64,000 nt of DNA from Styela clava (Eukaryota). The stretch spans positions 20,088,001 to 20,152,000 of the forward strand of contig NC_135259.1 in NCBI RefSeq assembly GCF_964204865.1, written 5' to 3'. Below are positions 6,646-54,020 of this stretch, one piece after another. Position 1 is the stretch's first letter; each line of letters begins with the position of its first letter. The translations under genes were made by a program, and so were the position numbers. The notes under the pieces were generated by a model, which saw only the letters and a list, made by a program, of their open reading frames with translations, was not told where the DNA came from and searched no databases.

Positions 6646-6980
6646 AGCCTTGTCCGACATAACATGTCATCAGAGCACAAAAACATCTGAGTACAAGTTA
6701 ACTTGACTTTCTGGAATGGTATTTCAATAAATTTTAGCATTACTCGATTTCGTTTACTAACTACGACAACTCAAAACCAGTATGGCGCTACGGAGCTATA
6801 AAACTGTTGGATTCTAGCCTCGTCCGATATAGAATGTTATCAGAGCACAATAACGTCACAAGTACAAGTTAACTCGACTTTTTCGAACACTATCCAATAA
6901 ATTTAACTATTGCTGTACTTCGTTTACAAACTACGAAGACGTAAAGTCAATGTGGCGCTACAGAGCTATAAAACTGTTGG
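6646..6980. repeat. 170-bp tandem duplication
   Basis: AGCCT.GTCCGA.AT at 6646 and 6816. Confidence 0.85.
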
Positions 6981-7100
6981 GCTACAACACTTGTAGCTTA
7001 CCCCTAGCCTTTTTTTTTATATCTCATGCTATTTTAAAAAGCTACAAACCACAGTCGGGTAAACAACAATCCTGTGGTAGGACAGACATTCTTGACACAT

Positions 7101-7117
7101 AGGTTATTCGAAGGTCA
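7101..7117 (+). promoter_or_regulatory. Candidate DR5 nuclear-receptor element (distal, copy A)
   Basis: AGGTTA-ttcga-AGGTCA; kept in B (12550-12566, AGGTTA-tttga-AGGTCA) and C (25868-25884, minus, AGGTTA-tttga-AGGTCG). Confidence 0.5.
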
Positions 7118-7495
7118 CAGCATGCGGAAGCATTCATTGTGTAAACAGGAAACTAAAATGACACGACGTGACGATAATGTCAGATAAGACCTTTTTAATA
7201 AATTAGATTGAAAAACACAAATCCAAATTAGTTGGCTTTATTGCGACGCACGTGTAATTGTTTTTGACAAAAATTCTTTTACAATGTTTACTATCAACGC
7301 TATTGTTACCTCATACTTGCGTCACAATCTCACCACCGGATCTTGTAACCTGTGTTAATTGCGTGACATAGGTTTGAATGCTACTTCTGATAATGATCAG
7401 TACTGTTCACTAAATACGGCAATGGATATGGATATTTTCTTATGTGGCAGAGAATATAGAGACTTAGAAAATAACACAGAAGTGGTGGATACGAT

Positions 7496-7750
7496 CTATT
7501 TTTATTCTCCTGAAGAGAGAATATTTGATAGTTCGTCTAGTTTTCATATGATAGTATATAGCAGGGCTATGTATTGTCAGACCGTGGTCCGAATACGAAA
7601 ATTTCAAATATTCGGATTCGGAGCTATTTTTATTCTCCTGAGGAGAGAAAATTTGATAGTTCGTCAGGTTTTCATATGATAGTATATAGCAGGGCTATGT
7701 ATTGTCAGACCATGGTCCGAATACGGAAATTTCGAATGTTGGATTCGGAT
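7496..7750. repeat. 128-bp tandem duplication, high identity
   Basis: CTATTTTTATTCTCCTGA at 7496 and 7624. Confidence 0.9.
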
Positions 7751-9363
7751 CGTACCTAATTCTTTATTTTTGATCAATGGCCCCACTTTTTAAGTTTCTT
7801 TTTATAAAATGACTTTTATAGTTTCGAATTCAAATGAAAATAACTATAACACCATAATAAACAATCTTGATTTGCTAACAATCATTATCCGGCCGAAGAA
7901 GTTAGCGTTTAAGGATGCCGAAATATAATTTCTGGAAAGACCAGACCCAAAATAGTTTTGAAGTTTTGTATGCGGATCTTCGGTAAAACAGTTGAGTAGC
8001 CATGGTATTAGGGGTGGGTATTTCGAATCGAATAGTGAATTATTGAAATCGGTTCAGTAATAAATTTCGAATCGCCGCCATCTTTTTTTTACTGTCCGCC
8101 AAGGGTCGAGGTGAATTATACAATTTTCCTTATCAAGGCTTTTCGTAGTTAGTTATCGTTGAAACATGTTGCTCATTGTGTTTGAATGCTCAGCAAACTA
8201 AGAGAGTGATTAATTCTACGTTTTCGAAAACCGATGTGTCTGGTGGAACCATTACAGTGAATGAGTCACATTTATTGACCAGCCTTGATGAGTATGTACA
8301 TTCATCCTATGCAGTGGTCGGCAACTTTTTATCACTCGCGGGCCAAAATTAAGGGTTGCAACTTGCAAGTCATTGGCGGGCCGCACATATTTTTAGAAAT
8401 TTGAAAACCGAACGGATGATACTGTTCATAATAAAAATGGAGCAGTGATACATCTCTCGAATAGAATATAGATTCATTTCCTCATTACAATGCATCTCAA
8501 AAAAATCCCATTTGAATATTTTGGGCGCCATTGAACCCTTTGCACTTTGAACCCACAACACATCAACTTTTCTGCGTTTTGTTGCCATTTGTCTAATTAT
8601 TATTGAACTATAGGCTCATTAAACGCGTGTTATTGTGAACTTTATACTTTAGATTAGAATATCATTTAGTATACACGTGTCTCGCAATAAACTCTGCTAC
8701 GTAAAGATATAATCGTCAGAACAACTTTTTTTTTTTTTAATATAATTCAGTGAATATAGCGGGCCGGATTATATTACTCCGCCTATTCCATCTCTTATAT
8801 ATTTTCCTCGTTTTCATATCTCGGTTTGAGACCGAAACTCGTTTTCCAGATTACACACATTCCATTTATGAGACTCGTTCAAAAACATCCCACGTTTCTA
8901 CATTTCTTTACAATTACTTTTACGCCAATTATGAATAATAAAATAGTTTAGGAGTGAGGCTGTGCCTTATTATAGTACAGTTATGTAGGTAGACATTGTG
9001 ACTAACATGAAAACACTTCAATGACTTTAGACCTTATGACGTCCGGCGACTTTTTATGATCTAAACAACAGGCTTCGTTTTCAAAAAACAACAAAGTTTT
9101 TCAATATTATTTGAAACTTTCTCAAGTAATTTTTAAACATGTTTGACACTTGGAGGCGTTTTTTATTTATTTATTGCAAGTATTATTCGGGATCTTTATT
9201 TACACCTAGTTGCCAAACTCTGGCTTCCCATTTATTCTCAAATTTGCAGCGTTGTTCTTTAACGCCCTTGGATGATACTGTGAATTAATTCATAGAAAAG
9301 AAACGTTGTGATGTCCGTTTTTATTTCATTTGGGAATCGGGAACCATCTTTATATTCAGAACA

Positions 9364-9573
9364 CGGCACTCCAGAAGTGTGTACCAACACGGAGGTAACT
9401 AATTTTGTTCGCCTACTTTACATCAATTTTTATAAAGAGACTGAAACCTATGGGCAGGGAGTATATTCACTTTGTTAACACAGACAGTCCCCGAGCTCGT
9501 AATAGAACTAAAATAGGGAAACTCGGAAAGTATGGCCCAACCCTAACCTAGTACGAATACTACTGGAGTACCC
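9364..9573 (+). mobile_element. 6-bp-TSD element, asymmetric ~210-230 bp type
   Basis: TSD AGAACA. Further copies: 25963-26166 (TSD AAAATT), 35977-36206 (TSD ATATAT), ~41730-41918, ~45246-45440, ~51128-51338, ~60775-61004 (-), ~63200-63397 (-). Confidence 0.88.
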
Positions 9574-9999
9574 AGAACATTCCCACTATACTCATCATAT
9601 ACAGAGTTTGACAATCATTCTTCTAAGTGCGTGACTAACGGTACTGAATACTGCAGAGTGGTGAAAAATATATTATTTTAAGATGGGGACATGGAACGTA
9701 TGCTTCCGTAATGCGTAATGTTTTACTATTTATACAAAACTGGCAACACTAATGTCTAAATCCATACTTACATAATGCTCCTGTGTTCAAAATCTTATCT
9801 CGTTCTAATCTATTTACTGTTTTGTGACAAAAGGCGTTGCCACATTTTAACACAGAGTTATGTAAGTTATTGGAAGAGCGTGCGTGACTGGCGTGATCCC
9901 TGTTGAACTGTTATATCTCACTCCAGACAACATGTTACATTTTTCTAATTGTTTTCAAACAATGCCTTCCTCTTTACGTCACAATATTAAGGCTTAGTT

Positions 10000-10029
10000 T
10001 GACCTTCGAGTCACCTTGAAGGTATATAA
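10000..10029 (+). promoter_or_regulatory. Candidate proximal DR5 element plus TATA box (copy A)
   Basis: TGACCT-tcgag-TCACCT, then 6 bp, then TATATAA. The same DR5 is in C (24037-24053). B has a degenerate DR5 with an intact TATATAA (14878-14907). Confidence 0.45.
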
Positions 10030-10241
10030 TTAAGATACTAATTACACGTCGTAGTGATGTTTACCATATTGGTATTAGCGTACTTTGATTATAAAACAAG
10101 TGTATATTTATCATTTGGGAAATATACCGCTGAATGTCTGATACCCAATCAATGAATACCTGTTGAAACAATGTGTTAATAAGCAAGCATGAAGTGATTT
10201 AATCTATTGGGAGACTCATGATTTTTCTCCGATATTACAGT

Positions 10242-10630
10242 TAAGGCTGGTTATATTCGAATATCTGATGATTCCAGAATCAAATCGAATATTTTTTTGA
10301 ATCGAATCTCGGAAGATATTCGACTTGGAAGATTTGTAGTTGTATTGACTGTTTTATTGTAATGGGTCTTTCAGATACATAACTCAGTGAAAACACGTAA
10401 TCTATCACTTAGACAGTTTGCTCAGTGTTCATACAGTAAGTAACATGTTTCATCAATAACTTACAAGGAAGAAAACGTCCATATGTCAAAATTGTATTTG
10501 AAAAATTTGACACGAATTAAAAAAAAAAAGGGATTCATCTCGACCTGCGCGCATCCAAATACCAAGGATGGCTCCGAATCGAAATTCCGGCCTGAACCAA
10601 TTCGAATAAATTTCGAAATCCCCAGCCTTA
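10242..10630. mobile_element. MITE of the TTCGAA family; site empty in copy C
   Basis: TAAGGCTGG/CCAGCCTTA ends, TTACAG duplicated, absent from the paralogous site near 23560-23575. Confidence 0.85.
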
Positions 10631-22842: not shown

Positions 22843-25800
22843 CTATAAACAAATAATGTTTGAATAGAAAACAGAAAATGATAAATGAAACACTAATCCG
22901 AAATAATGTCTAATTAATAACAGCTATTCGCGATACCGTAAACATGTACCATCATCCATTCACAAACGAAACTTTAACTCGATTTATATATTTTTAACTT
23001 GAAAGATTAAAGAAGTTGAATTGTTACCGGTTGTCAATCAAGCTTATCCCAAGAAATCTGTGAAGTCATTCATTTTAAACTAATTAACAAATGTTACATC
23101 ATCTTCGGAAGAAAATACTAACGATCGCTTTTATGAGTTAAGCTTCAAAATAAAAGAGTGAAATTTGAATACGCAAAATGATGTCACAAAAATGTAACGT
23201 CATACAACTTTGTTTAGAAAAAAGGGAAAAATCATAAATTTTTCAATTTCCACCACATGGTTTCGTACCTGGCATTCATAGATTCTGTAGGAAATACCAG
23301 CAATTCGGTTGAAAACCACAAGCGGTCAAATAATTGGATCACATAATTATGACAATATTTTGAACGAATAGTGAAACGATCATGAACTATGATTCCGCTG
23401 CAATTAACACCGACAGTCCCCGAACTCGTAATAGAACTAGAATGAGAAAAATCGAAATTGAGTTATGGCCTAACTCTAACCTGGAACACACACTACCGAA
23501 TTAAAATGTATTCCTATTACAAGTACAATGCGAAACTAAACTTAATATTAAAATAGTGTGCTGTAATATTGGAGAAAAATCACGACTCGTCCAATAAATT
23601 TAAGCAAATTTATTCTCGCTTATTAACGCATTACAACACAATGTTTTGACAGGTATTCATGGATTAGCTATCGGACATTCAGCGGCATATAGATTGTTCA
23701 TGAGGTCTTGAAATGTTTTAAAATTGCAAGGCAATTTATCGATATATTGTTTTGGGCCTCACAGATGTATTAAATGAAGTAAAACTATCTAAACAATTAC
23801 TGATTAAAAAACATCAAACCTGGTTAAGATACAATGAGAACTGACTTCTTCACAAAATGGAAATTGTAAATAGATTTTATGGACTTCCTGTATTTCCCTA
23901 TTGAATTATATACCCTAGTTCCACAATTGATATATATACGCTAGTTTTCTAATTAAATTGGGCTAATAATACCAATAGCAATATGGTAAACATCACTATG
24001 ACGTGAAATAGTTATTATCTTAATTAAATACCTTCAAGGTGACTCGAAGGTCACACATAGCAGTGCCATTTTGGCGTAAACAGGAAAATATTGTTTGCAA
24101 ACAATTTAAAAAATGTAACATGCTGTCTGGTATGAGATACAATAGGTCAACGGGAATCGTAACAGTCACGCACGCTCTTCCAAGAACTTACATAACTATG
24201 TTGATATGTGGCAACGCCTTTTTTTTCACAAAGCAGTACATAGATTTAACCAAGATAAGGATTTGAAACACAGAAGCATCAAATAAGTCTGATTTCAGAC
24301 CTCACCGTTGCCAGTTTTGTATAAGTAGTGACGGAGGCGATGTGATATGTCGATTGTAAAACGTTGTACATGAAGGGTAAATCTTTATAAGCGAGATAGA
24401 CATGCTCAATCAAGTCCCAACCTTTAAATATTACTTTGCCATCATTCTGCAGTATTTAGAAATGGTTGGGAAATACCTTGAATTTTAAAAATGATTACAT
24501 TATAAGCCCCCATCTTAAAATAAGACCTAGTCGATGGCGCGAATTTTTTTAAAACAAGAACTTGTTGGACCTTCTGAAGTATGCGCACAACCTGAACATA
24601 GTATGTGTACCAGGTTAGGGTTCTTCAGGTTGTGCGTCATCTTGGTGCGCACTTCAGGAGCACCAACTTGTTATTTATAAGTAAATGAATATGGGTTTTC
24701 ATATTTTGTATAACTAAAAATCTTGTAATTTTCTACTTTGTTGTCAAAAACTCTAAGCTCTAGTGCTGTACTTTTTCATGGGTGCTGAAAAACAAAGCTG
24801 GTGCAAAAGATCTTTTAAGTCATACTTCAAAATTGAAAAAACGTCTTTGAGTGTTTAAAAATGTTCACAAAGGACTGAAAATAGCTTGAAAAGGTTCCTA
24901 ATAATATTGAAAAACTACCAAACTATTGTTGTTTTCTAAAAACGAAGCCTGTTGTTTATATTAGATCGTAAAATGTCGTCTGAAGGTTATTAGGTCTAGA
25001 AGTCATAGACGTGTTTTTGCGTTAGTCACGATACCTACCCGCATAACTGTACTAAAATAAGGCACCGCCTTATTCCTAAACTATTTTATTATTCATAATT
25101 GGCGTACAAGTGATTGTAAAGAAATGTAGAAAAGTGCGGATGTTATTGAATGACTCTTTTAAATGGCATGTGACCAATGTGGAAATCAAGTTTCGGTCGC
25201 CAATCGATATTAAAACAAAAATAAAAGATATAAAAAGGGGTGGTTTCGTGGTGTGTTTTATGATGCTATCTATTCAATGAAGCGTTTTCCACTTTAAGTG
25301 AGCTTTAAGAAACTCGTGATCTCGTTTTGAGCGTACTTGTATATATAGATGACGCTTTCAGTGCGTCAGTGCTTGCTTAAAACTGTCAATACTTTTTCTA
25401 CTTCCAGTTGAGGCTCGGCACCTCGATTTGAGCAAACCTGTATGGGAAAATCTAGTTATCTAAACAGCTCATTCACATGGACTTTCTTAGCAAATGTTCT
25501 ATCAATTGTTCCGATTTAATGATACGAATTTTGTCGGCTTAATCGATTTGCGAATTCAATATTTTACAATTTTTTATATTTTACAAAATAAAAATAAATG
25601 TTCCGCCGTATTCAAATTCATATCTGCCATTCAAACAGGCCACGAGATTTGGTAGAAATAGTGACGCAGGTATAAGGTAACAATAGGATTGGAAGTAAAC
25701 ATAGTAAAAGAATATTTCGACAAAAACAATGACACGCCTATCGCGAGAAAACCAGGTAAAGTTAACCTGTGACATTTTTTGAGAAAAACTCATTTTTCCA

Positions 25801-26399
25801 TCTATCATTATTGTGGCGCTCAGCTATTTTCATTTCCTGTTTGTGCAATAAAGGCTTCCGCATTCTGCGACCTTCAAATAACCTTGTATGTTAAATAAAT
25901 AATTCTGACTATACTCTGTTGTTTATGTGACTGTAGTTTAGAGCTTCGTTGTTTTGAAAATTGAGCGCTCCAGAGGTGTGTGTACAAATATGGAGATAAC
26001 TAATTTTTTCACCTGCTTCGCATCAAGTTGTGTAAAGGGACTGAAACCTATGTATTCACTTGGCTAACACAGACAGTCCCCGCACTCGTAATAGAACTAA
26101 AATAAGGAAAATCGGAATAAAATTATGGCCTAACCTCAACCTGGTACATATACTACACAAGTACAGAAAATTGAGATGAGATTCATTTAGCGTACAAACC
26201 GGAAGTACTACTAACATAGATGTACTTATTTATCCATTGCTAACAATGCTATTGGATTTTCCCTCTTTTTCCCGAAACTGAAAATTAAATCATACCTAAC
26301 TATCCTGTATCGCCCGAGGTAATAAAAACTTATAATTTTAATTTTGTTTTTATGTAAATTTGTTGAGTTAAATCGTTACTTATCTGTCATTATTTTCAC

Positions 26400-44051: not shown

Positions 44052-44219
44052 TTACCAGTCTAAATCGCCTTCCTTCTTAGTATCCCCTAATCTTGGACTG
44101 TTATCCGTATAGAACTGTTTGTACCATCGCCTGAATGTCTTTTGTACTTTTTCTTCTTTCAAAAATAATGGCTTCGCAAGTATTCGTCTGTTATTCCAAA
44201 CCATGAGATCACGATCGAC
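44052..44219 (-). CDS. nvd: nvd exon 8 (last coding exon, TAA stop)
   Basis: [55 protein letters not shown]. Confidence 0.95.
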   Translation of the reverse strand, partial: VDRDLMVWNNRRILAKPLFLKEEKVQKTFRRWYKQFYTDNSPRLGDTKKEGDLDW

Positions 44220-47200
44220 CTATAAAATTGAAAAAGGAAATGTAAAGACGGTAGCTAAGACTTTGGACTTGACTATATCAATATCAGAAGTTGGAAGAGG
44301 TTCAACCATAGTGTCCCAAAATAAATGAAACCCAATAATTTGTTTACCAATTTTTTGGGCTTTATTTATTTTGGGACACCCTATATATAGTTACTGCAAC
44401 TATTGTCGGTCAGTGGCCGTTCTCAACTTTCAGCTCAGAAACCTGTTTTTTCGTAACCTTACTTTGAGCGAATTTTTTCAAGAAACAACCTTCTCGCAAA
44501 TGTCCGTTCTCGCAAAATTACATGCTCACTAAATGTACTTTCTCGCAAAAGCCAATTCTCACAAAAGTACATTCTGGGAAAAAGTCATTCCCGCAAACGC
44601 CTTTTTGCTTCAAAAGTTTTTTTCCACAATGCAACCTTTTCTAAAAAAATATTTCTCGTGAAACAACATTCTCGCAGAGCTATATTCCCTCAAAATGTCT
44701 TTTATCGCAAAAAAACTCTAACAAAAGGTTATTCGCGCAAACGTCTTTTTTCACAATATTTTTCTCGCAAAACCACATTTTATCAGAAGTCAGTTCTCGC
44801 AAAACAACATTCTCACAATAGTCTGTTTTTGCAAATGTACTTTCTCGCGAAAGATACATTCTCACAAAAAATCATTCTCGAAAATGGTACACTAACGCAA
44901 AAGGTTCATTCTCGCAAAAAATCATTCTCGCAAGTGTATAATAGACTAAAAAATAGTGTACCAACCTGCACAGTCAATCCCCATAAAACAGCCTTCGCGA
45001 TAATGTTCGGTATGTACCAAGGCTTAAACAGCGCATGGGTTAATATTTGATCCATAGGTTCCACTGGTGTAATGTTCTGTATTATTACAATCTTGCCAAC
45101 TGGAGTTGTTACGTGTAGATGAACAACCCCTGGTCCAATCTGCATAAAGAGAATAAAGTGTTATTTGGTGACAACATACACGTTTTCTAACTGGGACAAG
45201 TTTCTCCAAGGATGAGAAATTTCGTTGTTCTTGGAGAAGAATTCTGGGCGCTTCGGAAGTATGTTTACCAATATGGAGGTAACTAATTTTGTTCGCCTTC
45301 TGTACATCAAGTTGTGTAAAGGACCGGAAGCCTATGGACAGGGGGTATATTCTCTTGGCTAACAGAGACAGTACCCGAACTCGTAATAAAACTAAGATAA
45401 GAAAAATCTGAACAAAATTATGACCCAATCCTAACCCGGGGCATCAAACACATAACACCAGCTAAGAATCCAAAAAATATTTAATTAATAAAGTAGTTTT
45501 TATGCATAATGAGGAAGGAATAAAAAGTTCTAAAATAATCGAAAAGGGAATAATTGGTTGCAAAAAAAGTTGGGAGCCACTGCATTGCAAGCTGAAGAAT
45601 TGACAATACTTTTGGGATTTGCAATAGTATGTCATGTAATGGTTCCCCTGGCAGTGGGGATATGAAAATCACGTACTGTATGTCAATATATAGACTTGGA
45701 CTGATTTGAATTAAATAAGCTTACCTGATATATTTGAAAGTTGACGTAGACCATTCTCCACCGACTGAAAACTTCGAAAACATGAAGAAGACTAATTTTT
45801 GCAACGTGTTTTTCGCCCGTTTGAAGCATTGTGCTGTAGTCCGTCTGTTGTAATTGAATAAAAAATGTTTTTAAAAAATTATCTCAAAGCAAGATAACGC
45901 GCACACAGAAGTTATGACTACACCTCTGATTAATTTTATATTTACCTCCATAATATTCCCAGCAAGGTTGAACTTCGAATCAAAATGGGTTGCCAGATTT
46001 ACCCCAGCAAGAACAAGAGGTTGATGAAGATAATTTAGATGCGGTTCATCGTATCCGTTTTCTGGAATATCCTGTGAGAAAAATTGAAGTTGCTGTGAAC
46101 ATTGTACTTGATTTTTTTAGGGGAATACTGGTCTTATTCGCCTGTACTCCTGGCCTTACCCGCGTAGGGTGGTGGTGGGTTGGGGGAGGGGCAGTGTTTA
46201 TAAAAAAAGAAATACAAATAGGATTTCAACTTAAAATTAAGAATTGAATGTTTTAAAGCGTAAAGTGCCAAGTGCCCATCTTGGCGTGTTTACGTACTCT
46301 TGGGCGCTCACTTTCTGAAGTGCACCACAGGGATCAAAACGTTTCGCACAAGAAGCGCTGAGTCTAATCAAATATTTTAAAAGGGATAGAAATTTACTAT
46401 GTACTTGTTAAAGTTTATTTGCCCTGATGACCAGATGTCTAAATGACAGCCCAAATAGCCCTCTACTGAAGAGACCATCTAATAATCAGCAATTGGAAAA
46501 GTATATCCAAACCTATTCACATCTCCGTTGTCACGCCACGGAAAATAATATTTAAATGACAATTGGGGTCTTATATTCATTCTCCTAACCTTATAACGGC
46601 AAGAAGAACTTTCCGAAAGAAGGTCTTCTTTGTCCGATAAATTGTCTAAAATTTTAGTGGTTCTCAAACTTTTTAAACCGCGCCCCCTTTTTAGAATTTG
46701 TCAAGTCTCGCGCCCCGCATCAAAAATTACTAGCTAACAATAAGCTACAAACAACAGGTAAAAGTATGTTTTATTCAGAAAACACTTTACAATGTAAATA
46801 TCCAAAATAAGGCGGACAAAATCAAATCTAACAAATAAGCTTCACGCCCCCTCGAACAAATTGCCTACAAGGGCGCGCCCCACCGTTTGAGAAGCACTGA
46901 ATTCTAAAACGCGTATTCAACTCTATTTACCTGTATATGTGTGTTGATATGATGCTCTATTCGGCCTGCATAAGCATACTGTTGCTTGTCGACTTGCGGT
47001 ACAGAGGGCATTTCCCACTCCGGGTCTGTCCCGTCACAGTGATACCAGACATATATATTACCGTTCATTTCTCGTGAGTGCCAGGTCTTCATATCTCCAT
47101 TCTTTGGCACTGTAAAGTAGAAAAAAAATCAAAATGGACGTTTTAGTGAACTTATTGCCTAGAGCTGATAATTTTATGTATAATTCCTAGGGCATAACTG

Positions 47201-50200
47201 TACCACTACATCATCACTTTGTACAGCTCTAGGCACGCCAATGGCCGCTTGCAATTATTCCATCAAAATTATTTTTACTCTCTATTTAGAGATTACGACG
47301 TTCAGAAAGTTCAATATAAAATAAATTCCGCTCTTAAAGCGTAAGCGTAGGCTTTCAATATTTCAGTTAATATTATTTATGATTTTAGCCGAAGGGTCAG
47401 GACCTTTCCCATGGGAACTAATACAAAATGTAGAACGACCAATTATACTAAAAAATTCCGGGATTGCTTACATTTATCTGAGTAGGGCACTTCGACGCAT
47501 TTCCCTTCCATGTTGAACTTCCAGCCATGGAACGGGCACTGGATACAATCTCCTGACACGCGGCCCCCAACTCCAAGATTTGCTCCCATATGGGTACAAT
47601 AGGCGTCCATCACTGATACGTTGCCAGATTTGCCACGGAAAGCAATTAAGTTTTCCCCTGAAAAAAAAATAATAATAATGAAGTTAAAATTATTCCGTTT
47701 GTTTACTTTTTAATCTAACTTGAGATAAACAGAAGTTAAACATGTCGATGGTGGGGCAATAACAGTATAGTACTGCCCGATTTATATCACTGATTTGCAA
47801 AAGATAATAGGCCACCCCAGAGATTTTCCTATACCCCTTCCTATAAAGGGTGAACACCTTCCTAAAATTTTAATTGATTTACTACTACTTTCGAAAAACA
47901 CAACCGAAAACTGGCATATAACATGCAAGGCAACGAAAGTGAGGCAATATTTACAGCCATGCTTAAATATCTGTCTGAGCGAAATAAGTGTATAAGCCGC
48001 GTAAATTTCAATTGTTACGTCATTGTTGATTAATTGGTGATTGGCCATTGTTCCGGAAAGAAAATTGGTGCTCGGGGAAACATCCATAAAGAGTTCCAAA
48101 ATTGGCATAGAAGGAATTTAACGAAAACGGCTGGGAACCACAGCAATAACGAGTGACATACCATTAGAACCGGGCGTGTAAAGTCGTTTAGTCTTGACTC
48201 TCACAAATATGAAATAAATAAAATATCGTTTATAAACTTTGATGTCGGATTACAAGTAGTAAATACTGAAACGTGACTCAATTATCACATTTTAACCAGT
48301 GTTGCCATTTTTTAGTCACGACATGAAGGGTTAGCAGTTTTTAAAAGGTTTTAAAAGGCGTAGGTGTGGTTAAAAGCCTGGTAAAGCTGGCAACACTCAT
48401 TTCTCCTGAAATTTGAATATTAATTTGAGACAAAGAGTCAGCAGTTACGTCATGTCCGGATTAATTGTATTTAAACTTGTTTCGGAACTCGGTGATCAAT
48501 CAATCTTCTAAATTTAGGTAGAAGTGTAATCACTACTGTTATTCTGAAACTTTTTTTTTGATGATTTCGTTTTTCAAGCCAACAAATTCAGCAAAATAAA
48601 GTCATTAATTTCCTATTAATCAGGCTCGAAGTTTCTCTCCTTCTAATTTTATATGAAAGTATGATCACTCTTTTTTTTCTTAAAAGAAACGTCTGGATGT
48701 TTAGTTGTAGTCGGCCAATAAATATGGAAACATGAGAACGTTTAATTACATTTGCATACAAGTTTGAATTCATGTTACTGTAGATATCAGCCTAGTTATA
48801 GCATTCGCAAAAACAACATTTATTTAAAGTATATTGCCTGCGATTTGATTAAATGTTTGACTGTAATGCATTTATTTTTCTGCTATCGTCTTTTGTCTTT
48901 TTCATTACGCACAAAATAACTGGTATGGAATTTTTATAGAAGAACATTAATTAAGAGTCTTTGGCAGCGGGTGCAACGGATCGTGCAAACTGCAAAACAA
49001 TTTGTTGAAACATTGGCGTCCGTATCATAATGTAATAATAATACTATATATATATATATGTCTTCTGCTAGGAATTTTGCGTGATAAATTAGGCGTGATT
49101 TTTTGTTGTTATTCCTCCAAGGCAAGAGCTGGCATTCGGTACCACCCGTGTCGTTTGTAGTGAAGACCCAAACTTTGAGGATTGTAGATTTGACTATGTT
49201 AGGGTCGCATGTTAAAAGCCTCTGGTTCAACCTTCGTGCTTAAACCTAACTCAAAGTGTAATCAATTAGGTAGAATAAACCGCAACGAAAGATTCCTTTT
49301 ATTCCAACACATACTTTCACTTTACGTATTAATTGCGTTCATAAGGGGCCTAATGTATAGTGAGCGCACTTCCAGCAAACGTAAAAAAAACATGCGTATT
49401 AAATTGTATACAAATAAAAACGTATAATCTGCATTAACGAGAGACATCTATTCTGCGCGATTGAAGAATCGAGACAACGCCTACATTATGATCCAATCAG
49501 ACGCCGTTTCATGTCGCGTCACGAGAAAATATTGTTGTGTAAATTGGGACTTTCAGTGTTCACCGTGGCTTTGCTCAGAAGTGAGTCTTTACCATGTGAC
49601 ATAGATTTGACTGAATTCCCATAAAAAAATGTGCGACAACGCACACATCACTCTAATCAGGCGCCGTTTTATGCCACGTTGCGAGAAAATATTGTTATTA
49701 GAGTCAATGTGCATTTGAAACAAATAATTGGCTAACTAATCCCATGTCCGACATTCACTGGTAACGGGACGAGAGGCCGTGGTTCGCCATATGATTGAGC
49801 CGTCTTAGCGGCTTTCCTATTCCCCGAGATAAATATGTAAGTCATATCCTATTACAGCGTCCTTGATTTTGCTCATAGACGGTCTTCCTTTACTTCTGAA
49901 TGAGTGTACGTGACTACTTTGAAGTAATCTTCGAAAAATGTGCGCCAACGCATACATTACAACTCAAACCAGGCGCTGTTTCATGTCGCGTTGCACGAAA
50001 ATACCATTTTATGTTTCTGATTGGTTTTAGTCGTTGCCCGTGATTTTGCTCAAGGTGGTCTTACTTCTGAGTGAGTGCACGTTACATTACTTTTAGGAAA
50101 TTCCCACAAAAAATGCGAGACATCTCGCACAGAACACTCCAATCAGGCGTTGTTTCACGTTGCGTTGCAAGTGTTACTGGATTATTCAAGCGATCACTCA

Positions 50201-52304
50201 CAATTTAGCCCACAGATGAGTTTCCTTTAATTAGCTCTAATTGAATTGGCTGTGAGAAAATGCTAAAAAGATATTAAAGTAAATGGCGGACTTTTGATTT
50301 GACCTATCGCCACCAGACCCAGGACATGTAAAATTAGTAGGGCTGGGAATTTCAGGGAAAACACTTTGACCGTTACCCGGGTAAAATTAACCGGTTAACC
50401 GCCGCGTGACGTTTGACGTATTAATTTATATTTCAGCGTGTTACATCACAATGCTTATAAAGTAATTTCGCGTGTTATTATCTCGGTATCGCTCAAATTT
50501 ATTCACGAATCGAGATAGTTACATGATTGTTCTGCTGCAAGAATAGGCAGCGTGGTTTGGGCATGTGGAAGTATTTTAGAAAAACCCGATTCCGTTGTTA
50601 AACGTCATTATGTAATAAATTTTCAGTGTTCGATGTGCAAGTTCTACTTTGGGATATAATATATTATAAATATATGAACAATATATTTCGAAATCGACCT
50701 GAAACTGATTCTGAATTCATCATTGTCAAATTTCACTTGTTGTATGACTTGTATGACATTAAATATTCGATTTTGCAATGTCATCGTGAACAATATATTT
50801 CGAAATCGACCTGAAACTGATTCTGAATTCATCATTGTCAAATTTCCATGATCAACAATCTTGTACTTCCATTATTTTTCACATTTATTGAGTCCTTACT
50901 CACACAGTTAGTAATATTCTTTTGAATTAAACGCCACAAGAGATAAATTTGAGAAGATGTAATTATATTTGAAGAAATTGTACGGTATAAAGATGGTTTG
51001 TACCTGAGATGTCAGTTAACGGTTAAAATAAATCGTAACCGTTAACCATCTGAAATCGGTTGATCGGTTAACCATTCCCAGCCCTGAAAATTAGCCTACA
51101 TATTAGCCACAGACATATTAAGATTTCAGTGCTCCAAAAGTGTGTACTGATAGGAAGGTAACTAATTTTGTTCGCCTATTTTACATCGAGTTGTGTAAAG
51201 GGGCTGAAACCTATGGGCAGGGGGTGTATTCACTTGGTTAACACAGATAGTCCCCGACTCGTAATATAACTAAAATAAGGAAAATCGGAATAAAAATAGA
51301 GCCTAACCCTAACCTGGTACACATACTACGGGGGTACAAAATATAAATGTAAGCAATTACTCACCCATTGCAGTGACTTGCTTCACTTCGCCCTTCTTTA
51401 AGAATCTTGAATCCATGATACGAAACCATCCGTTCGGATAGACTGGTGGAATTTCAAGACCCTGTTTCCGCCTCCTTCGTACGAGGTTCACGATTTGTCG
51501 TTGAGTCATTTCGTAAGATTCAGGATTGGTATACCTGTGAATAAAGATAGAATTGTTAACATTTTCCTTGAATATGGGCGTATTGAGGGTGTGGATTGGG
51601 CGTATCAAAGGTGAATTTGGTTTATATGAGTTCCATTGAAGTCCAGTAAATATCATCCAAGCGTGACTGGCCAGAATATTGTCATTGCAATAAGAAATTG
51701 ACTCGTGCTGTTATGTTTTGCGATACTGAATTTTTTTAATTATAGTTTATTTTATAGCCACTTTTTGAAAAAAAGTAATATTTGCAGATGCACATTAGCG
51801 ATAACAGTAATTTTTCTAGTTAACAATTAGATTTTCATCATAAAGAAGAAACATGCAACCACTCAATTGTTAAGAGCTATTATCTATTAAAGCGATGTTC
51901 GGCATCACCTGACCACTTAAATACAACCTTCATGAGGTGGTCGAAACGAGGAACAATCTTTAACCCACGATCGACGCTCTTACCACTATGTATCGGACTC
52001 AGACAACAATCCAGATATAACTAGGCGCTAAGGTATCTATTATATCAACTTACCCAACGGACCCCAATGGTCTTATTAACTCGTATGGAAGAAATATTAA
52101 ATCATAGAGGTAGTATACTATTCTCCATATTCTTTTGATGACGTAATAGGTGACGTAACTCGAAAATACTACAGCAAAAATAGTTATGCTCGTAGCAACG
52201 AATTCTGGTGATATGATGTCATTATTGGATGATGTCATCTCCGATTTATGAGATGCCATTGATAATGTTGCTCTATAAAAGTTTCTCACTAAACAGTTCT
52301 CCAT
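44052..52304 (-). CDS. nvd: Neverland/DAF-36-like Rieske-domain cholesterol 7-desaturase, 8 coding exons, 457 aa
   Basis: Exons 52304-52054, 51534-51365, 47657-47472, 47109-46931, 46071-45946, 45844-45725, 45139-44966 and 44219-44052 join through GT-AG introns with matching phases (2,1,1,0,0,0,0) into 1374 nt with no internal stop. Family motifs: N-terminal TM helix, PPVYPNGWF, Rieske CTH-x17-CPFH, iron motif [13 protein letters not shown] (E-x3-D-x2-H-x4-H), [23 protein letters not shown], terminal LDW*. Confidence 0.95.
44440..44935. repeat. Degenerate TTCTCGCAAAA minisatellite in nvd intron 7
   Basis: Many 15-20 bp units with a TTCTCGCAAA core. Confidence 0.8.
44966..45139 (-). CDS. nvd: nvd exon 7
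   Basis: [58 protein letters not shown]; 174 nt; donor GTTGGT. Confidence 0.93.
45725..45844 (-). CDS. nvd: nvd exon 6
   Basis: [40 protein letters not shown]; caacag acceptor, GTAAGC donor, 120 nt. Confidence 0.88.
45946..46071 (-). CDS. nvd: nvd exon 5 (mononuclear iron motif)
   Basis: [42 protein letters not shown]; 126 nt, phase 0-0. Confidence 0.95.
46655..46899. mobile_element. hAT MITE in nvd intron 4
   Basis: Same family as 38701-39002. Confidence 0.82.
46931..47109 (-). CDS. nvd: nvd exon 4
   Basis: [35 protein letters not shown]...[12 protein letters not shown]; ttacag acceptor, GTAAAT donor. Confidence 0.95.
47472..47657 (-). CDS. nvd: nvd exon 3 (Rieske 2Fe-2S cluster ligands)
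   Basis: [61 protein letters not shown]; tttcag acceptor, GTAAGC donor; not in the ORF track. Confidence 0.97.
49420..50170. repeat. About 165-bp tandem repeat, 4 copies, in nvd intron 2
   Basis: AATCAGGCGCCGTTTCATGTCGCGT-like cores near 49495, 49656, 49967 and 50141; SINE fragment inserted. Confidence 0.8.
49716..49852 (+). mobile_element. 5'-truncated SINE (3' half) in nvd intron 2
   Basis: Homologous to the reverse complement of 20217-20355. Confidence 0.7.
50338..51086. mobile_element. Non-autonomous hAT (Ac-like) element in nvd intron 2
   Basis: TIR TAGGGCTGGGAAT/ATTCCCAGCCCTG; perfect TSD AAAATTAG; subterminal GGTTAACC motifs; internal ~60-bp direct repeat (50677 and 50788). Confidence 0.92.
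51365..51534 (-). CDS. nvd: nvd exon 2
   Basis: tcacag|G; [57 protein letters not shown]; donor G|GTGAGT. Confidence 0.95.
52054..52304 (-). CDS. nvd: nvd exon 1 (membrane anchor); alternative in-frame ATG at 52259
   Basis: MENCLVRN...[21 protein letters not shown]...LIRPLGSVG; donor GG|GTAAGT, phase 2. Confidence 0.85.
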
Positions 52305-54020
52305 TTTGTAATTTTATTTATGTTTCTGAGAAAACAATGATTAAAGTTTTTAATATTTTTTCACTTTATAATCGTTATGCAAAGGAACAATTCTTTTCTA
52401 AATAATCGGCGTTTATTAATTTGCAACTCCTACCATCTCTATTAGGTGGGGTTTACATTCTGTATGTACTCGCATTTCAAACATGATGAAAAAATGAAGT
52501 ACTGGCTTATTTTTTGAATTTGAAATGATGCTTATGGAGTCGTCATTGTCTATCCAATCTATTCCACCTTGGATGAGGTGTTATGTCAAATTGATTTCTA
52601 CGATTCACTAAACAACTCAAAATGTCGGTACATAATAGTTCAGGTTACAAACAACTGTGATGAAATATCATTAATGCTCTGATACATGGGGAGTTATTGA
52701 TTTTGTAATAATGCTCTGCATTGTCTCACCAATTTCTCCCACCTTGGATGAGATAATATGTCAAATTGATTTCTGCAACTGACTAAACAACACAAAATGT
52801 CAATACACAATAGTTTAGGTAACAAAATATATCATCAATATATAATAAGACAGTATCAAACAAAGTCCGTTGCGCCCGGGAAAAAAGTTTTGTTGCCAGC
52901 TGTAATAGGACTGTTTTCTCACAATAGAATTACAATGAAGATTACGATAAAGCGATCTTATCTTTCGCTGCCAGCCCAAGAATGAACACTGAACTTTGCT
53001 ACTCGATCTCCCTTGCTTGATGTGATTTCAATCGCGTTTAATCTCATAAAGACATTCTCATAGAATTCGTTTCCCAACACTAACTAGAATCACTTAAATT
53101 ACACAATCCCTGATATCGCATCGTAATTGACACTACTGAACTACCTGATTAGACTGAGCTATCTTCATACGCGGTCTCTATATATATATACATTCGTAAC
53201 TAGGCAAAAGTGCAAAGTCCTGTTTTTCTTGTACTTCAGGAAATATCTCGTTTTATTTAGCGACACCGGTGTTGTCTCTATGACGTCAATTTTCGTCATA
53301 ATAATGCCGGGGAATTTAAAATTTTCAGCCGCAAATTTTGAATCCTAATACGGCGAGACACTTTTGTTTTTGTGTGCTTGATATTGCGTCAAAAATGTAA
53401 ATTAGGTGTTTGATGACATCACTAAAGTTTCAGTAGAAAATAATTAAGTAGGAAGTAAATACAATTTAATTTTTGGGAAAATATTCAACATTTTTATGAT
53501 ACTCTTGACTGCAGAATAAATGTACCGTAAGTAAGAGTAAGAGTTACGAATCTTTGGCATTATTTAATGAATTTTTGTAAATTAAACAATGGAGCTATCG
53601 CTACTGAACATCTGTAACGAATTGTATTACACGGTTTATTTACAACTTTTAGAGACAGATGGATGCCACGAAAACTTCATGGAGTGAACGAGTCACCTAT
53701 ATACCGTACACAGCTTAAGTTTTTGTATGCCGAAAGAACGGTATACTGTATGTATCATACCGTATATACCTATGTACCGAGCTGATCTTCCTAACTGTAA
53801 AAAAACCCAGATATTGGTCGATTTACTAACGCTAACCATTCTGAATCGATTGGAATACAAATTGTTAGGCTGAGATCAAAACAACTAATTTCTTCAAACT
53901 TTAGACACCACTTTTGGGGTGTTGCACATCTCCGTCTCGCGTTTTCGGTATTGACCTCAAAGGGTTCTAGAGAAGAATTTGAAAATAAGCGTTCATGAAT
54001 CTTTTGTACAAATCCTCCGC

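What the first reader, a model, noticed from the sequence alone, without database searches (positions are those of the whole stretch)
7040..10060. Nuclear-receptor (RARE-like) cassette kept in all three copies: distal DR5, middle DR1/DR2, proximal DR5 beside TATA
Seen: distal AGGTTA-n5-AGGTCA (7101; 12550; 25884 minus). Middle TGACTT/TGACCT-like half-sites spaced 1-2 bp (~9022, ~13822, ~24985-25006 minus). A DR4-like pair at 9894-9909. Proximal AGGTGA-n5-AGGTCA (10000-10016; 24037-24053), 6 bp from TATATAA in A. These fall in the modules that align best, next to GTAAACA (Fox-type) motifs. Established: DR5 and DR2 are RAR/RXR elements; vertebrate RARB2 has a TATA-adjacent DR5 and CYP26A1 has proximal plus distal RAREs. 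Inference: a multiplied retinoid- or sterol-receptor-responsive promoter/enhancer unit, driving a decayed local gene or acting as an enhancer array about 26-45 kb from the start of the sterol desaturase gene. This is the best candidate for an undescribed system in the window.
Basis: partly seen in the sequence, partly recalled or inferred. Interest (0 to 1): 0.7.

Follow-up and report, generated by a model that had tools for sequence, protein, structure and literature searches.

The report
Triplicated promoter-like block with DR5 sites
A non-coding stretch of DNA that was copied three times on the spot and then broken up by small transposons carries hormone-receptor-type sites and a TATA box, so it is likely a retinoid-type promoter whose copies are partly decaying, but no gene that it controls was identified.

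Summary
The motifs are at the stated places, but they are not kept in all three copies. Only copy A has both DR5s within one mismatch of RGKTCA. B has lost the proximal 5' half-site and C's distal DR5 has two mismatches. The middle and DR4 pairs hold in one copy each. The named half-sites are not better conserved than their modules overall (38/54 against 584/891, P=0.28); the distal DR5 alone is (11/12, P=0.035). The 'modules' are a unique, locally triplicated non-coding block cut up by dispersed repeats. That tail follows 6 of 7 such sites and 0 of 29 AAGGTC sites outside the units. The proximal and middle modules diverged less than co-duplicated flanks (83% against 68%). The best reading is a nuclear-receptor-bound TATA promoter, likely read by RAR/RXR (the genome encodes RAR), with an unknown target. 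The link to the sterol desaturase rests on proximity alone.

The parts
6991..12309 (+). Copy A of the locally triplicated unit (distal, middle, proximal and downstream modules plus inserted repeats)
   Evidence: self-BLAST; only local matches in the genome
12452..16608 (+). Copy B, head-to-tail behind A; proximal DR5 broken, first downstream module most diverged
21536..25946 (-). Copy C, inverted; forms the arms of an inverted duplication with B and its flank
7101..7152 (+). A distal composite block: DR5 AGGTTA-n5-AGGTCA, 24 nt, TAAACAGGAAA (Fox/Ets-like; label recalled)
12550..12566 (+). B distal DR5 (one mismatch); a 19-nt deletion removes the Fox part of the tail
13378..13429 (+).
   Evidence: (nhmmer E 1.7e-13)
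25833..25884 (-). C distal block, DR5 with two mismatches (ends AGGTCG), 24 nt, CAAACAGGAAA
9022..9042 (-). A middle: three degenerate half-sites; no pair within one mismatch
13823..13836 (-). B middle DR2-like AGGTCA-ta-ATGTCA (one mismatch); one repeat unit deleted relative to A and C
24983..25006 (+). C middle: three degenerate half-sites AGGTTA-tt-AGGTCT-ag-AAGTCA
9894..9909 (-). DR4-like pair in A only; the RGKTCA half (9904-9909) is kept in all three copies (AGTTCA in A, AGGTCA in B and C), its partner is not
9966..10016 (-). A proximal composite block: DR5 AGGTGA-n5-AGGTCA, 23 nt, TAAAGAGGAAG; inverted relative of the distal block
14844..14894 (-). B proximal block: 5' half-site lost (GGGATA), GAAGGTCA and TAAACAGGAAA kept
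24037..24087 (+). C proximal block: DR5 identical to A, 23 nt, TAAACAGGAAA
10023..10059 (+). TATATAA and a predicted initiator at about 10052-10053 (+29/+30; spacing rule recalled), then GTGATG; TATATAA at 14901 in B, TATTTAA in C
   Evidence: sequence; inference for the start site
10718..12309 (+). Downstream non-coding modules of A, internally repeated (M1 once, M2 and M3 three times each; 6 copies each of M2 and M3 over the three units); no coding signature; no consensus RNA fold for M2
7690..8673 (.). Dispersed repeats between the distal and middle modules of A (one has 1121 first-look candidates genome-wide)
9347..9581 (.). Abundant MITE-like repeat between the middle and proximal modules of A
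10244..10610 (.). MITE-like repeat present in A only, so inserted after the duplication; best of 39 other copies scored is 80% identical (1302 candidates, 40 scored including itself)
44052..52313 (-). Rieske sterol-desaturase-like gene (Neverland/DAF-36 type; family name recalled); the units lie beyond its 3' end
   Evidence: Pfam Rieske E 9.7e-18 and KshA_C E 3.8e-08

Best explanation
This is a non-coding block of about 1.3 kb that was copied three times on the spot and cut into modules by later transposon insertions, and it likely works, or worked, as a TATA promoter switched by a nuclear-receptor dimer, most likely RAR/RXR on the DR5 elements. Shown: the triplication, the insertions, the motifs, and that the distal and proximal DR5s are the same DR5 + 23/24 nt + TAAACAGGAAA block in opposite orientations. 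Inferred: a Fox factor (with or without an Ets factor) bound at the tail would open the site, the receptor dimer would bind the DR5, and the proximal block 6 bp from the TATA box would start a transcript at about 10053 that runs into the repeated downstream modules. That product would be non-coding or very short, or is now lost. The copies appear to be decaying unevenly: B has lost the proximal DR5 and its first downstream module has drifted, C's distal DR5 has an extra mismatch, and A keeps both.
For: Two DR5s in A's 1265-bp core, shuffle P=0.0015 (0.014 for any spacing). The pattern covering both has 5 hits in 377 Mb, 4 of them in these units, and 0 for the reversed control (the pattern was derived from these sites). 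Between the A distal and the A or C proximal blocks the DR5 is 15/17 identical and the tail 9-11/11, while the linker is 8-14/23 over all nine pairs: a footprint-like pattern. The tail follows 6 of 7 distal/proximal sites, 0 of the 9 other AAGGTC sites in 6900-26000 and 0 of 29 outside. A distal-module profile finds C's proximal block at E=1.9e-4 in 164 kb. Distal DR5 11/12 invariant against 176/279, P=0.035. B-C identity is 493/592 in the proximal + middle modules against 342/502 in co-duplicated flanks, P=6e-9. A repeat inserted after the duplication is already at least 20% from the copies scored, more than the 16-17% between proximal modules. TATA and initiator spacing is kept in three copies. 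RAR DNA-binding exon: best PDB hits are RAR at E 3e-23, next family at 2e-15.
Against: The nine named half-sites are not more conserved than the rest of their modules (38/54 against 584/891, P=0.28). Proximal DR5 9/12, P=0.67; both DR5s pooled 20/24, P=0.11. No DR5 here is a perfect RGKTCA-n5-RGKTCA. The 5' half-site is lost in 2 of 7 blocks, while AAGGTC is invariant in all 7, which fits a monomer site as well. The shuffle P counts two related sites as independent. Module and flank limits were picked by BLAST, and gene conversion could raise identity (A-C 88% in M1 but 69% in the distal module). No target gene: no Pfam hit above its curated cut-off in 144 frames scanned outside the desaturase and no frame with a coding signature (pN/pS 0.65-0.96 in all 36 frame tests). 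One-mismatch DR5s are common: 15 in 164 kb, and AGGTKA-n5-AGGTCA has 716 genome hits. Mouse RAREs did not drive reporters in Ciona embryos (PMC3227721, discussion passage).
Confidence: 0.42

Rival explanations
1. The block is a real promoter, but the working site is the extended single half-site (GAAGGTCA / TCAAGGTCA) read by a monomeric orphan receptor such as ERR, NR5A or NR4A together with a Fox/Ets factor; the DR5 look is incidental and there is no ligand response.
For: AAGGTC is the only receptor-like stretch invariant in all 7 blocks. B keeps GAAGGTCA and the tail after losing the 5' half-site; the extra partial copy has TCAAGGTCA. GAAGGTCA occurs 7 times in the window, 6 of them in the units. 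The genome has ERR-, NR5A- and NR4A-like DNA-binding exons (assigned from recalled signatures).
Against: The 11 bases upstream of the 3' half-site are 9/11 identical between the A distal and the A/C proximal blocks while the linker is near random, and AGGT.A is kept at DR5 spacing in 5 of 7 blocks. CGAAGGTCA does not fit the recalled ERR (TNAAGGTCA) or NR5A (YCAAGGYCR) sites exactly.
Confidence: 0.22
2. The three copies are now functionless. They descend from one old promoter or intergenic stretch, inherited their motifs, and drift neutrally; higher identity in some modules comes from gene conversion or from how the blocks were picked.
For: Half-sites not more conserved than module DNA. Runs of invariant columns in the proximal module are no more clustered than under uniform change (P=0.32). 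Many repeat insertions, including 200 bp downstream of the TATA box. No coding signature, no Rfam match in the units. Motifs broken in B and C.
Against: Proximal and middle modules are 79-84% identical in all three pairings with few indels, against 66-74% for co-duplicated flanks. Invariant runs are clustered in the distal (P=0.008) and middle (P=0.038) modules. The distal/proximal block keeps DR5 and tail but not the linker.
Confidence: 0.22
3. The units are a long-range enhancer array for the sterol 7-desaturase gene, putting it under retinoid- or sterol-receptor control.
For: The desaturase is the only protein gene recognised in the window, and no Pfam-recognised frame of 62 aa or more lies between C and it. 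Receptor feedback on sterol enzymes is a common design (own knowledge).
Against: The units lie 18-37 kb past its 3' end and 26-45 kb from its start. They have their own TATA boxes, facing each other in B and C. A small secreted-protein gene starts 14.5 kb from copy A. The module profiles find no match near the desaturase start. The DR4 (the LXR-type spacing) holds in one copy only.
Confidence: 0.09
4. The inverted distal and proximal blocks are worn terminal inverted repeats of an old non-autonomous DNA transposon, and the DR5 look is a feature of its ends.
For: Two 51-52-bp blocks face each other around about 1.2 kb of unique DNA. A different, abundant repeat in this genome does carry a DR5-like core.
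Against: No copies elsewhere in the genome by DNA search or by pattern (the 1 and 2 outside hits are of chance order, controls 0 and 1). No target-site duplication seen by eye. Homology among A, B and C runs on past both blocks.
Confidence: 0.05

Closest known systems
Vertebrate RARB2 and CYP26A1 promoters; amphioxus CYP26 cluster RAREs
   Same: DR5-spaced RGKTCA-like half-sites, one next to a TATA box and one further upstream. In amphioxus, tandemly duplicated CYP26 genes each carry several DR5s bound by RAR/RXR in vitro (PMC5247814, passages read). The Rarb DR5 is listed in PMC7259794 Table 2; its TATA-adjacent position is recalled.
   Different: Those elements are perfect or near-perfect, conserved across species, shown to bind, and sit before a known gene. 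Here each DR5 has one or more mismatches, one copy has lost it, no binding is shown and no gene was found. The A and C spacers (TTCGA, CTCGA, TTTGA) fit the amphioxus NNN(A/G)(A/C/G) spacer, and AGGTGA fits its 5' half (A/G)G(G/T)T(C/G)A; AGGTTA does not.
Ciona Hox1 epidermal RARE
   Same: A RARE acting in an ascidian (PMC3227721, passage citing Kanda et al. 2009).
   Different: A single tested element of a developmental gene. The same paper reports that mouse RARE fragments were inactive in Ciona embryos. I did not see the element's sequence.
FOX:ETS composite enhancer motif (vertebrate endothelium; recalled, two searches found no paper)
   Same: The tail TAAACAGGAAA joins a Fox-type TAAACA to an Ets-type GGAA.
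   Different: Here it sits at a fixed 23-24 nt behind a DR5-like element. No binding was tested and the label rests on memory.
Alu-borne DR2 retinoic acid response elements in primates
   Same: Parallels the side finding that an abundant repeat of this genome carries a DR5-like core. PMC1785376: search listing and start of abstract only.
   Different: That is spread by transposition to hundreds of places; the unit studied here has three local copies and its DR5s do not come from that repeat.

Membership tests
DR5 retinoic acid response element (RAR/RXR) | Two RGKTCA half-sites 5 bp apart, perfect or within one mismatch | tested here: met
   Met with one mismatch in 4 of 7 blocks (A distal, B distal, A and C proximal); not met in C distal, B proximal and the extra partial copy; none is perfect.
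DR5 retinoic acid response element (RAR/RXR) | Half-sites more conserved than spacer and flanks | tested here: inconclusive
   Distal 11/12, P=0.035; proximal 9/12, P=0.67; pooled P=0.11. Paralogues only; no other species available.
DR5 retinoic acid response element (RAR/RXR) | RAR and RXR encoded in the genome | tested here: met
   RAR exon L035 best matches RAR structures; RXR-like exons L032 and L055 by recalled signature.
DR5 retinoic acid response element (RAR/RXR) | Binding by RAR/RXR and a ligand-dependent effect on transcription | not testable with these tools
   Needs EMSA, ChIP or reporter assays.
DR1/DR2 element (middle module) | A half-site pair within one mismatch, kept across copies | tested here: not met
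   Only B passes; 9 of 18 half-site columns invariant against 193/276 around them.
DR4 element (LXR/TR type) | Both half-sites kept at 4-bp spacing | tested here: not met
   Passes in A only; partner half-site is GCATCA in B and GAATCG in C.
TATA/initiator core promoter | TATA box about 30 bp before a pyrimidine-purine start | tested here: met
   TATATAA 10023 and 14901, TATTTAA in C, with TA or CA at about +29 to +33. Sequence only; spacing rule recalled.
TATA/initiator core promoter | A mapped start site and transcript | not testable with these tools
   Only assembled contigs were offered; they cannot show a start.
Protein-coding gene or pseudogene downstream | A frame with fewer amino-acid-changing than silent differences, or a family match | tested here: not met
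   pN/pS 0.65-0.96 in all 36 frame tests, no frame standing out; no Pfam match in the units. Very short exons could be missed.
Structured non-coding RNA (miRNA, snoRNA) | Rfam match or a fold shared by the copies | tested here: not met
   No Rfam hit in the units at E<=1; no consensus pairs for M2; no 90-nt hairpin of -21 kcal/mol or better shared by A, B and C. M1 and M3 were not folded as alignments.
DNA transposon (terminal inverted repeats) | Dispersed copies and a target-site duplication | tested here: not met
   Only local copies (the tool warns that counts are lower bounds); no duplication seen at the block ends.

The most novel reading that the evidence does not exclude
A fixed-spacing DR5 + Fox/Ets composite switch, multiplied to seven copies by nested inverted and tandem duplication, forms a retinoic-acid-driven array that makes a non-coding RNA and also controls the neighbouring Neverland-type sterol 7-desaturase, tying retinoid signalling to sterol conversion in an invertebrate chordate.
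Probability: 0.06. Interest if true: 0.65.

Novelty: new member of a known kind. Interest (0 to 1): 0.27.

Why it matters
Few retinoic acid response elements have been tested in ascidian-like chordates (PMC3227721 names one, in Ciona Hox1, as of 2011). A DR5 + Fox/Ets block present in seven related copies with natural losses (no 5' half-site, no Fox part, extra mismatch) is a ready-made set for asking what this lineage's RAR/RXR binds and whether a Fox partner is needed. Without a target gene or binding data it stays an ordinary duplicated promoter-like stretch.

Tried and rejected
Expression: the run search for 9600-16700 listed no RNA holder. Four runs guessed to be RNA (3 studies, contigs only) were laid on 6900-17900 at 80% likeness; the bins holding the unique modules had zero or near-zero depth. 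Neither result is evidence for or against transcription. The four DNA holders are one sample and may be the window's source, so they were not used.

Decayed exons: by eye the downstream modules offered splice-like sites and short open frames, and all three copies have ATG TTY ACC ATM TTG a few bases after the predicted start; the codon test showed no frame under constraint, so this was dropped. In-frame TGA in 3 of 6 M2 copies (selenocysteine or another code) was dropped because the same column holds TGG and TCA and the frames shift.

miRNA/snoRNA cluster: negative. Transposon ends: see rivals. Two sequence profiles were built but were not run over the genome, so distant relatives below BLAST range remain untested.

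The middle half-site positions were one base off; one search gives the corrected counts and replaces one search's pooled figures. (repeat divergence from a local majority, 7-11%) used only 267 kb and columns with at least 60% agreement, so it underestimates age and was not relied on. Of 153 frames of 62 aa or more outside the desaturase, 144 were scanned, 4 and 5 not at all.

Papers: no hit for neverland + cholesterol 7 + ascidian or for the FOX ETS motif; searches gave nothing on this locus. 'Styela' was my guess, not a result. No supplements were read; RARE lists in the supplements of PMC5247814 and PMC7259794 may bear on which one-mismatch variants bind.
Full report
Setting. The window lies on contig C13 of a 377-Mb animal genome. 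It is 36% G+C with little CpG depletion. The set of nuclear-receptor exons looks ascidian-like; that is my inference and no call names the organism. The only protein gene recognised in the window is a Rieske sterol-desaturase-like gene on the minus strand, about 52300 to 44050 (Pfam Rieske E 9.7e-18, KshA_C E 3.8e-08). The name Neverland/DAF-36 is recalled.

The three copies. Self-comparison shows copy A at about 6991-12309 (+), copy B head-to-tail behind it at 12452-16608 (+), and copy C inverted at 25946-21536. B with its flank and C with its flank are the arms of an inverted duplication (17425-17813 against 21457-21059; 18570-18692 against 20215-20094). Genome searches with the proximal, downstream, distal and middle modules return only these local copies. 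The tool gives lower bounds, and the distal search missed C itself. The gaps between the 'modules' are dispersed repeats: they match elsewhere in the surrounding 164 kb, two of them have over 1100 first-look candidates genome-wide, and many divergent contigs from other loci pile up on them. So the modular look comes mostly from later insertions into one unique block of about 1.3 kb plus about 1 kb downstream.

The motifs. A scan for RGKTCA pairs with at most one mismatch finds DR5s at 7101, 12550, 10000 and 24037, a DR2 at 13823 and a DR4 at 9894. C's distal DR5 ends in AGGTCG and B's proximal 5' half-site is GGGATA. The middle pair passes only in B and the DR4 only in A. TATATAA starts at 10023, 6 bp after A's proximal DR5; B has it at 14901 and C has TATTTAA. 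Only A carries the whole set. Two DR5s in A's 1265-bp core are unusual (P=0.0015; 0.014 for any spacing 0-5), but one-mismatch DR5s are not rare in general (15 in 164 kb).

With corrected positions, the nine named half-sites are invariant in 38 of 54 columns against 584 of 891 elsewhere in the modules (P=0.28; on ungapped columns 38/48 against 584/828, P=0.13). Split up: distal DR5 11/12 (P=0.035), proximal DR5 9/12 (P=0.67), both together 20/24 (P=0.11). The longest invariant runs in the modules are other sequences, such as TTTCTACATTTCTTTACAAT, GATCTAAACAACAGGCT and AAAAGGCGTTGCCACAT. The test fails for the cassette as a whole.

The distal and proximal DR5s are 15 of 17 identical and point in opposite directions. 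Each is followed after 23-24 nt by (T/C)AAACAGGAAA or a close variant. B holds a further partial distal copy at 13378-13429, giving seven blocks. Across the nine distal-proximal pairs compared, the DR5 is 10-15/17 identical, the tail 7-11/11 and the linker 8-14/23. The tail follows 6 of the 7 sites (B distal has a 19-nt deletion there), none of the 9 other AAGGTC sites in 6900-26000 and none of 29 outside. The tail pattern was defined from these blocks, so the contrast is post hoc. A profile of the distal module finds C's proximal block at E=1.9e-4 and A's at E=0.58. The simplest reading is an older inverted copy of one composite element in which the DR5 and the tail were kept while the linker drifted; convergence is also possible. 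It follows that the two DR5s are not independent, which weakens the shuffle P, but the pattern of what was kept points to function. In the seven-way alignment AAGGTC is invariant, whereas the 5' half-site is lost twice, which keeps a monomer reading open.

Constraint on the modules. Pairwise identity is 83-84% in the proximal module, 79-83% in the middle, 69-81% in the distal, and 65-88% in M1. For B against C, proximal + middle give 493/592 and the co-duplicated flanks 342/502 (P=6e-9). A repeat found only in A, and so younger than the duplication, is at most 80% identical to the 39 other copies scored. Both points suggest the proximal and middle modules changed more slowly than neutral DNA, very roughly at half to three quarters of the rate (my estimate). 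Block limits came from BLAST, and the mosaic of closest pairs allows gene conversion. B's branch in M1 is long (0.28 against 0.05-0.07), in line with B being the copy that is decaying. Invariant runs are clustered in the distal (P=0.008) and middle (P=0.038) modules, not in the proximal one (P=0.32).

No product found. Downstream of the TATA box lie M1 and the internally repeated M2 and M3 modules. No frame on either strand shows a coding signature (pN/pS 0.65-0.96 in 36 tests). There is no Pfam match, no Rfam match in the units and no shared fold for M2. The RNA look-ups are under Tried and rejected and decide nothing.

Mechanism, with each step marked. Shown: triplication, insertions, motifs, the composite block, an RAR gene in the genome. 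Established: DR5 is an RAR/RXR spacing, amphioxus RAR/RXR binds DR5s whose 5' half may be (A/G)G(G/T)T(C/G)A (PMC5247814, passages), and one-mismatch DR5s occur among conserved mouse RAREs (PMC7259794, Table 2 passages). Inferred: binding of RAR/RXR here, a Fox/Ets partner (label recalled), a start at about 10053, and any response to ligand. I put 0.42 on this reading, 0.22 on a monomeric orphan receptor, 0.22 on a functionless relic, 0.09 on an enhancer array for the desaturase and 0.05 on transposon ends. A caution from the same group of animals: mouse RARE fragments gave no reporter expression in Ciona embryos (PMC3227721, passage).

The desaturase link.

Verdict. A real, unique, locally triplicated promoter-like block with a repeated DR5 + Fox/Ets-like element, partly decayed, target unknown. 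It works like, at best, a known kind of promoter. Membership in the RARE class is met by sequence in 4 of 7 blocks and untested by binding. Interest 0.27.

Noticed in passing
window 15171-15187 and genome-wide: An abundant MITE-like repeat with a telomere-like core carries AGGTTA-gggtt-AGGTCA, a DR5-like element. The pattern AGGTKA-n5-AGGTCA has 716 genome hits against 131 for the reversed control, and nearly all of the first 100 listed are this core or close variants. A repeat may be spreading DR5-like sites, as Alu does for DR2.
   Followed up: partly
L012:2577-4960 (about 7.4-5.0 kb left of the window), + strand: A small secreted-protein gene of at least three exons with two short four-cysteine, Sushi-like modules and a proline-rich tail (labels by eye, no Pfam hit above cut-off).
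   Followed up: partly
window 18878-18949 (-) and 19950-20006 (+): A tRNA gene and a decayed partner (Rfam 49.5 and 25.4 bits) face each other near the centre of the B/C inverted duplication.
   Followed up: no
window 11004-12309, 16053-16608, 21536-23121: The repeated M2 module keeps GATAATCTTGATTGACAACCGGTAAC (GATA-, Pbx/Meis- and Grainyhead-like words; labels recalled) and M3 keeps an inverted pair of Fox-like sites. They may be enhancer modules in their own right.
   Followed up: partly
window 9858-9890: Invariant TTATGTAAGTT (PAR-bZIP-like) and AGCGTGCGTGACTG (AhR/ARNT-like) in all three proximal modules (labels recalled), better kept than the DR4 beside them.
   Followed up: no
L022:1501-1517: The one outside hit of the DR5 pattern lies in an intron of what looks like an alpha-carbonic-anhydrase gene (recalled motifs), 23 bp before TTATAAAT; one hit is of chance order.
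   Followed up: partly
L042, L043, L046, L047 (G000:C1, 21.09-21.33 Mb): At least four near-identical nuclear-receptor DNA-binding exons are clustered on C1, a local receptor expansion.
   Followed up: no
window 44468-45050: An array of 16-17-bp TTCTCGCAAA units near the desaturase's last exon, which gives a 197-codon open frame on the + strand.
   Followed up: no
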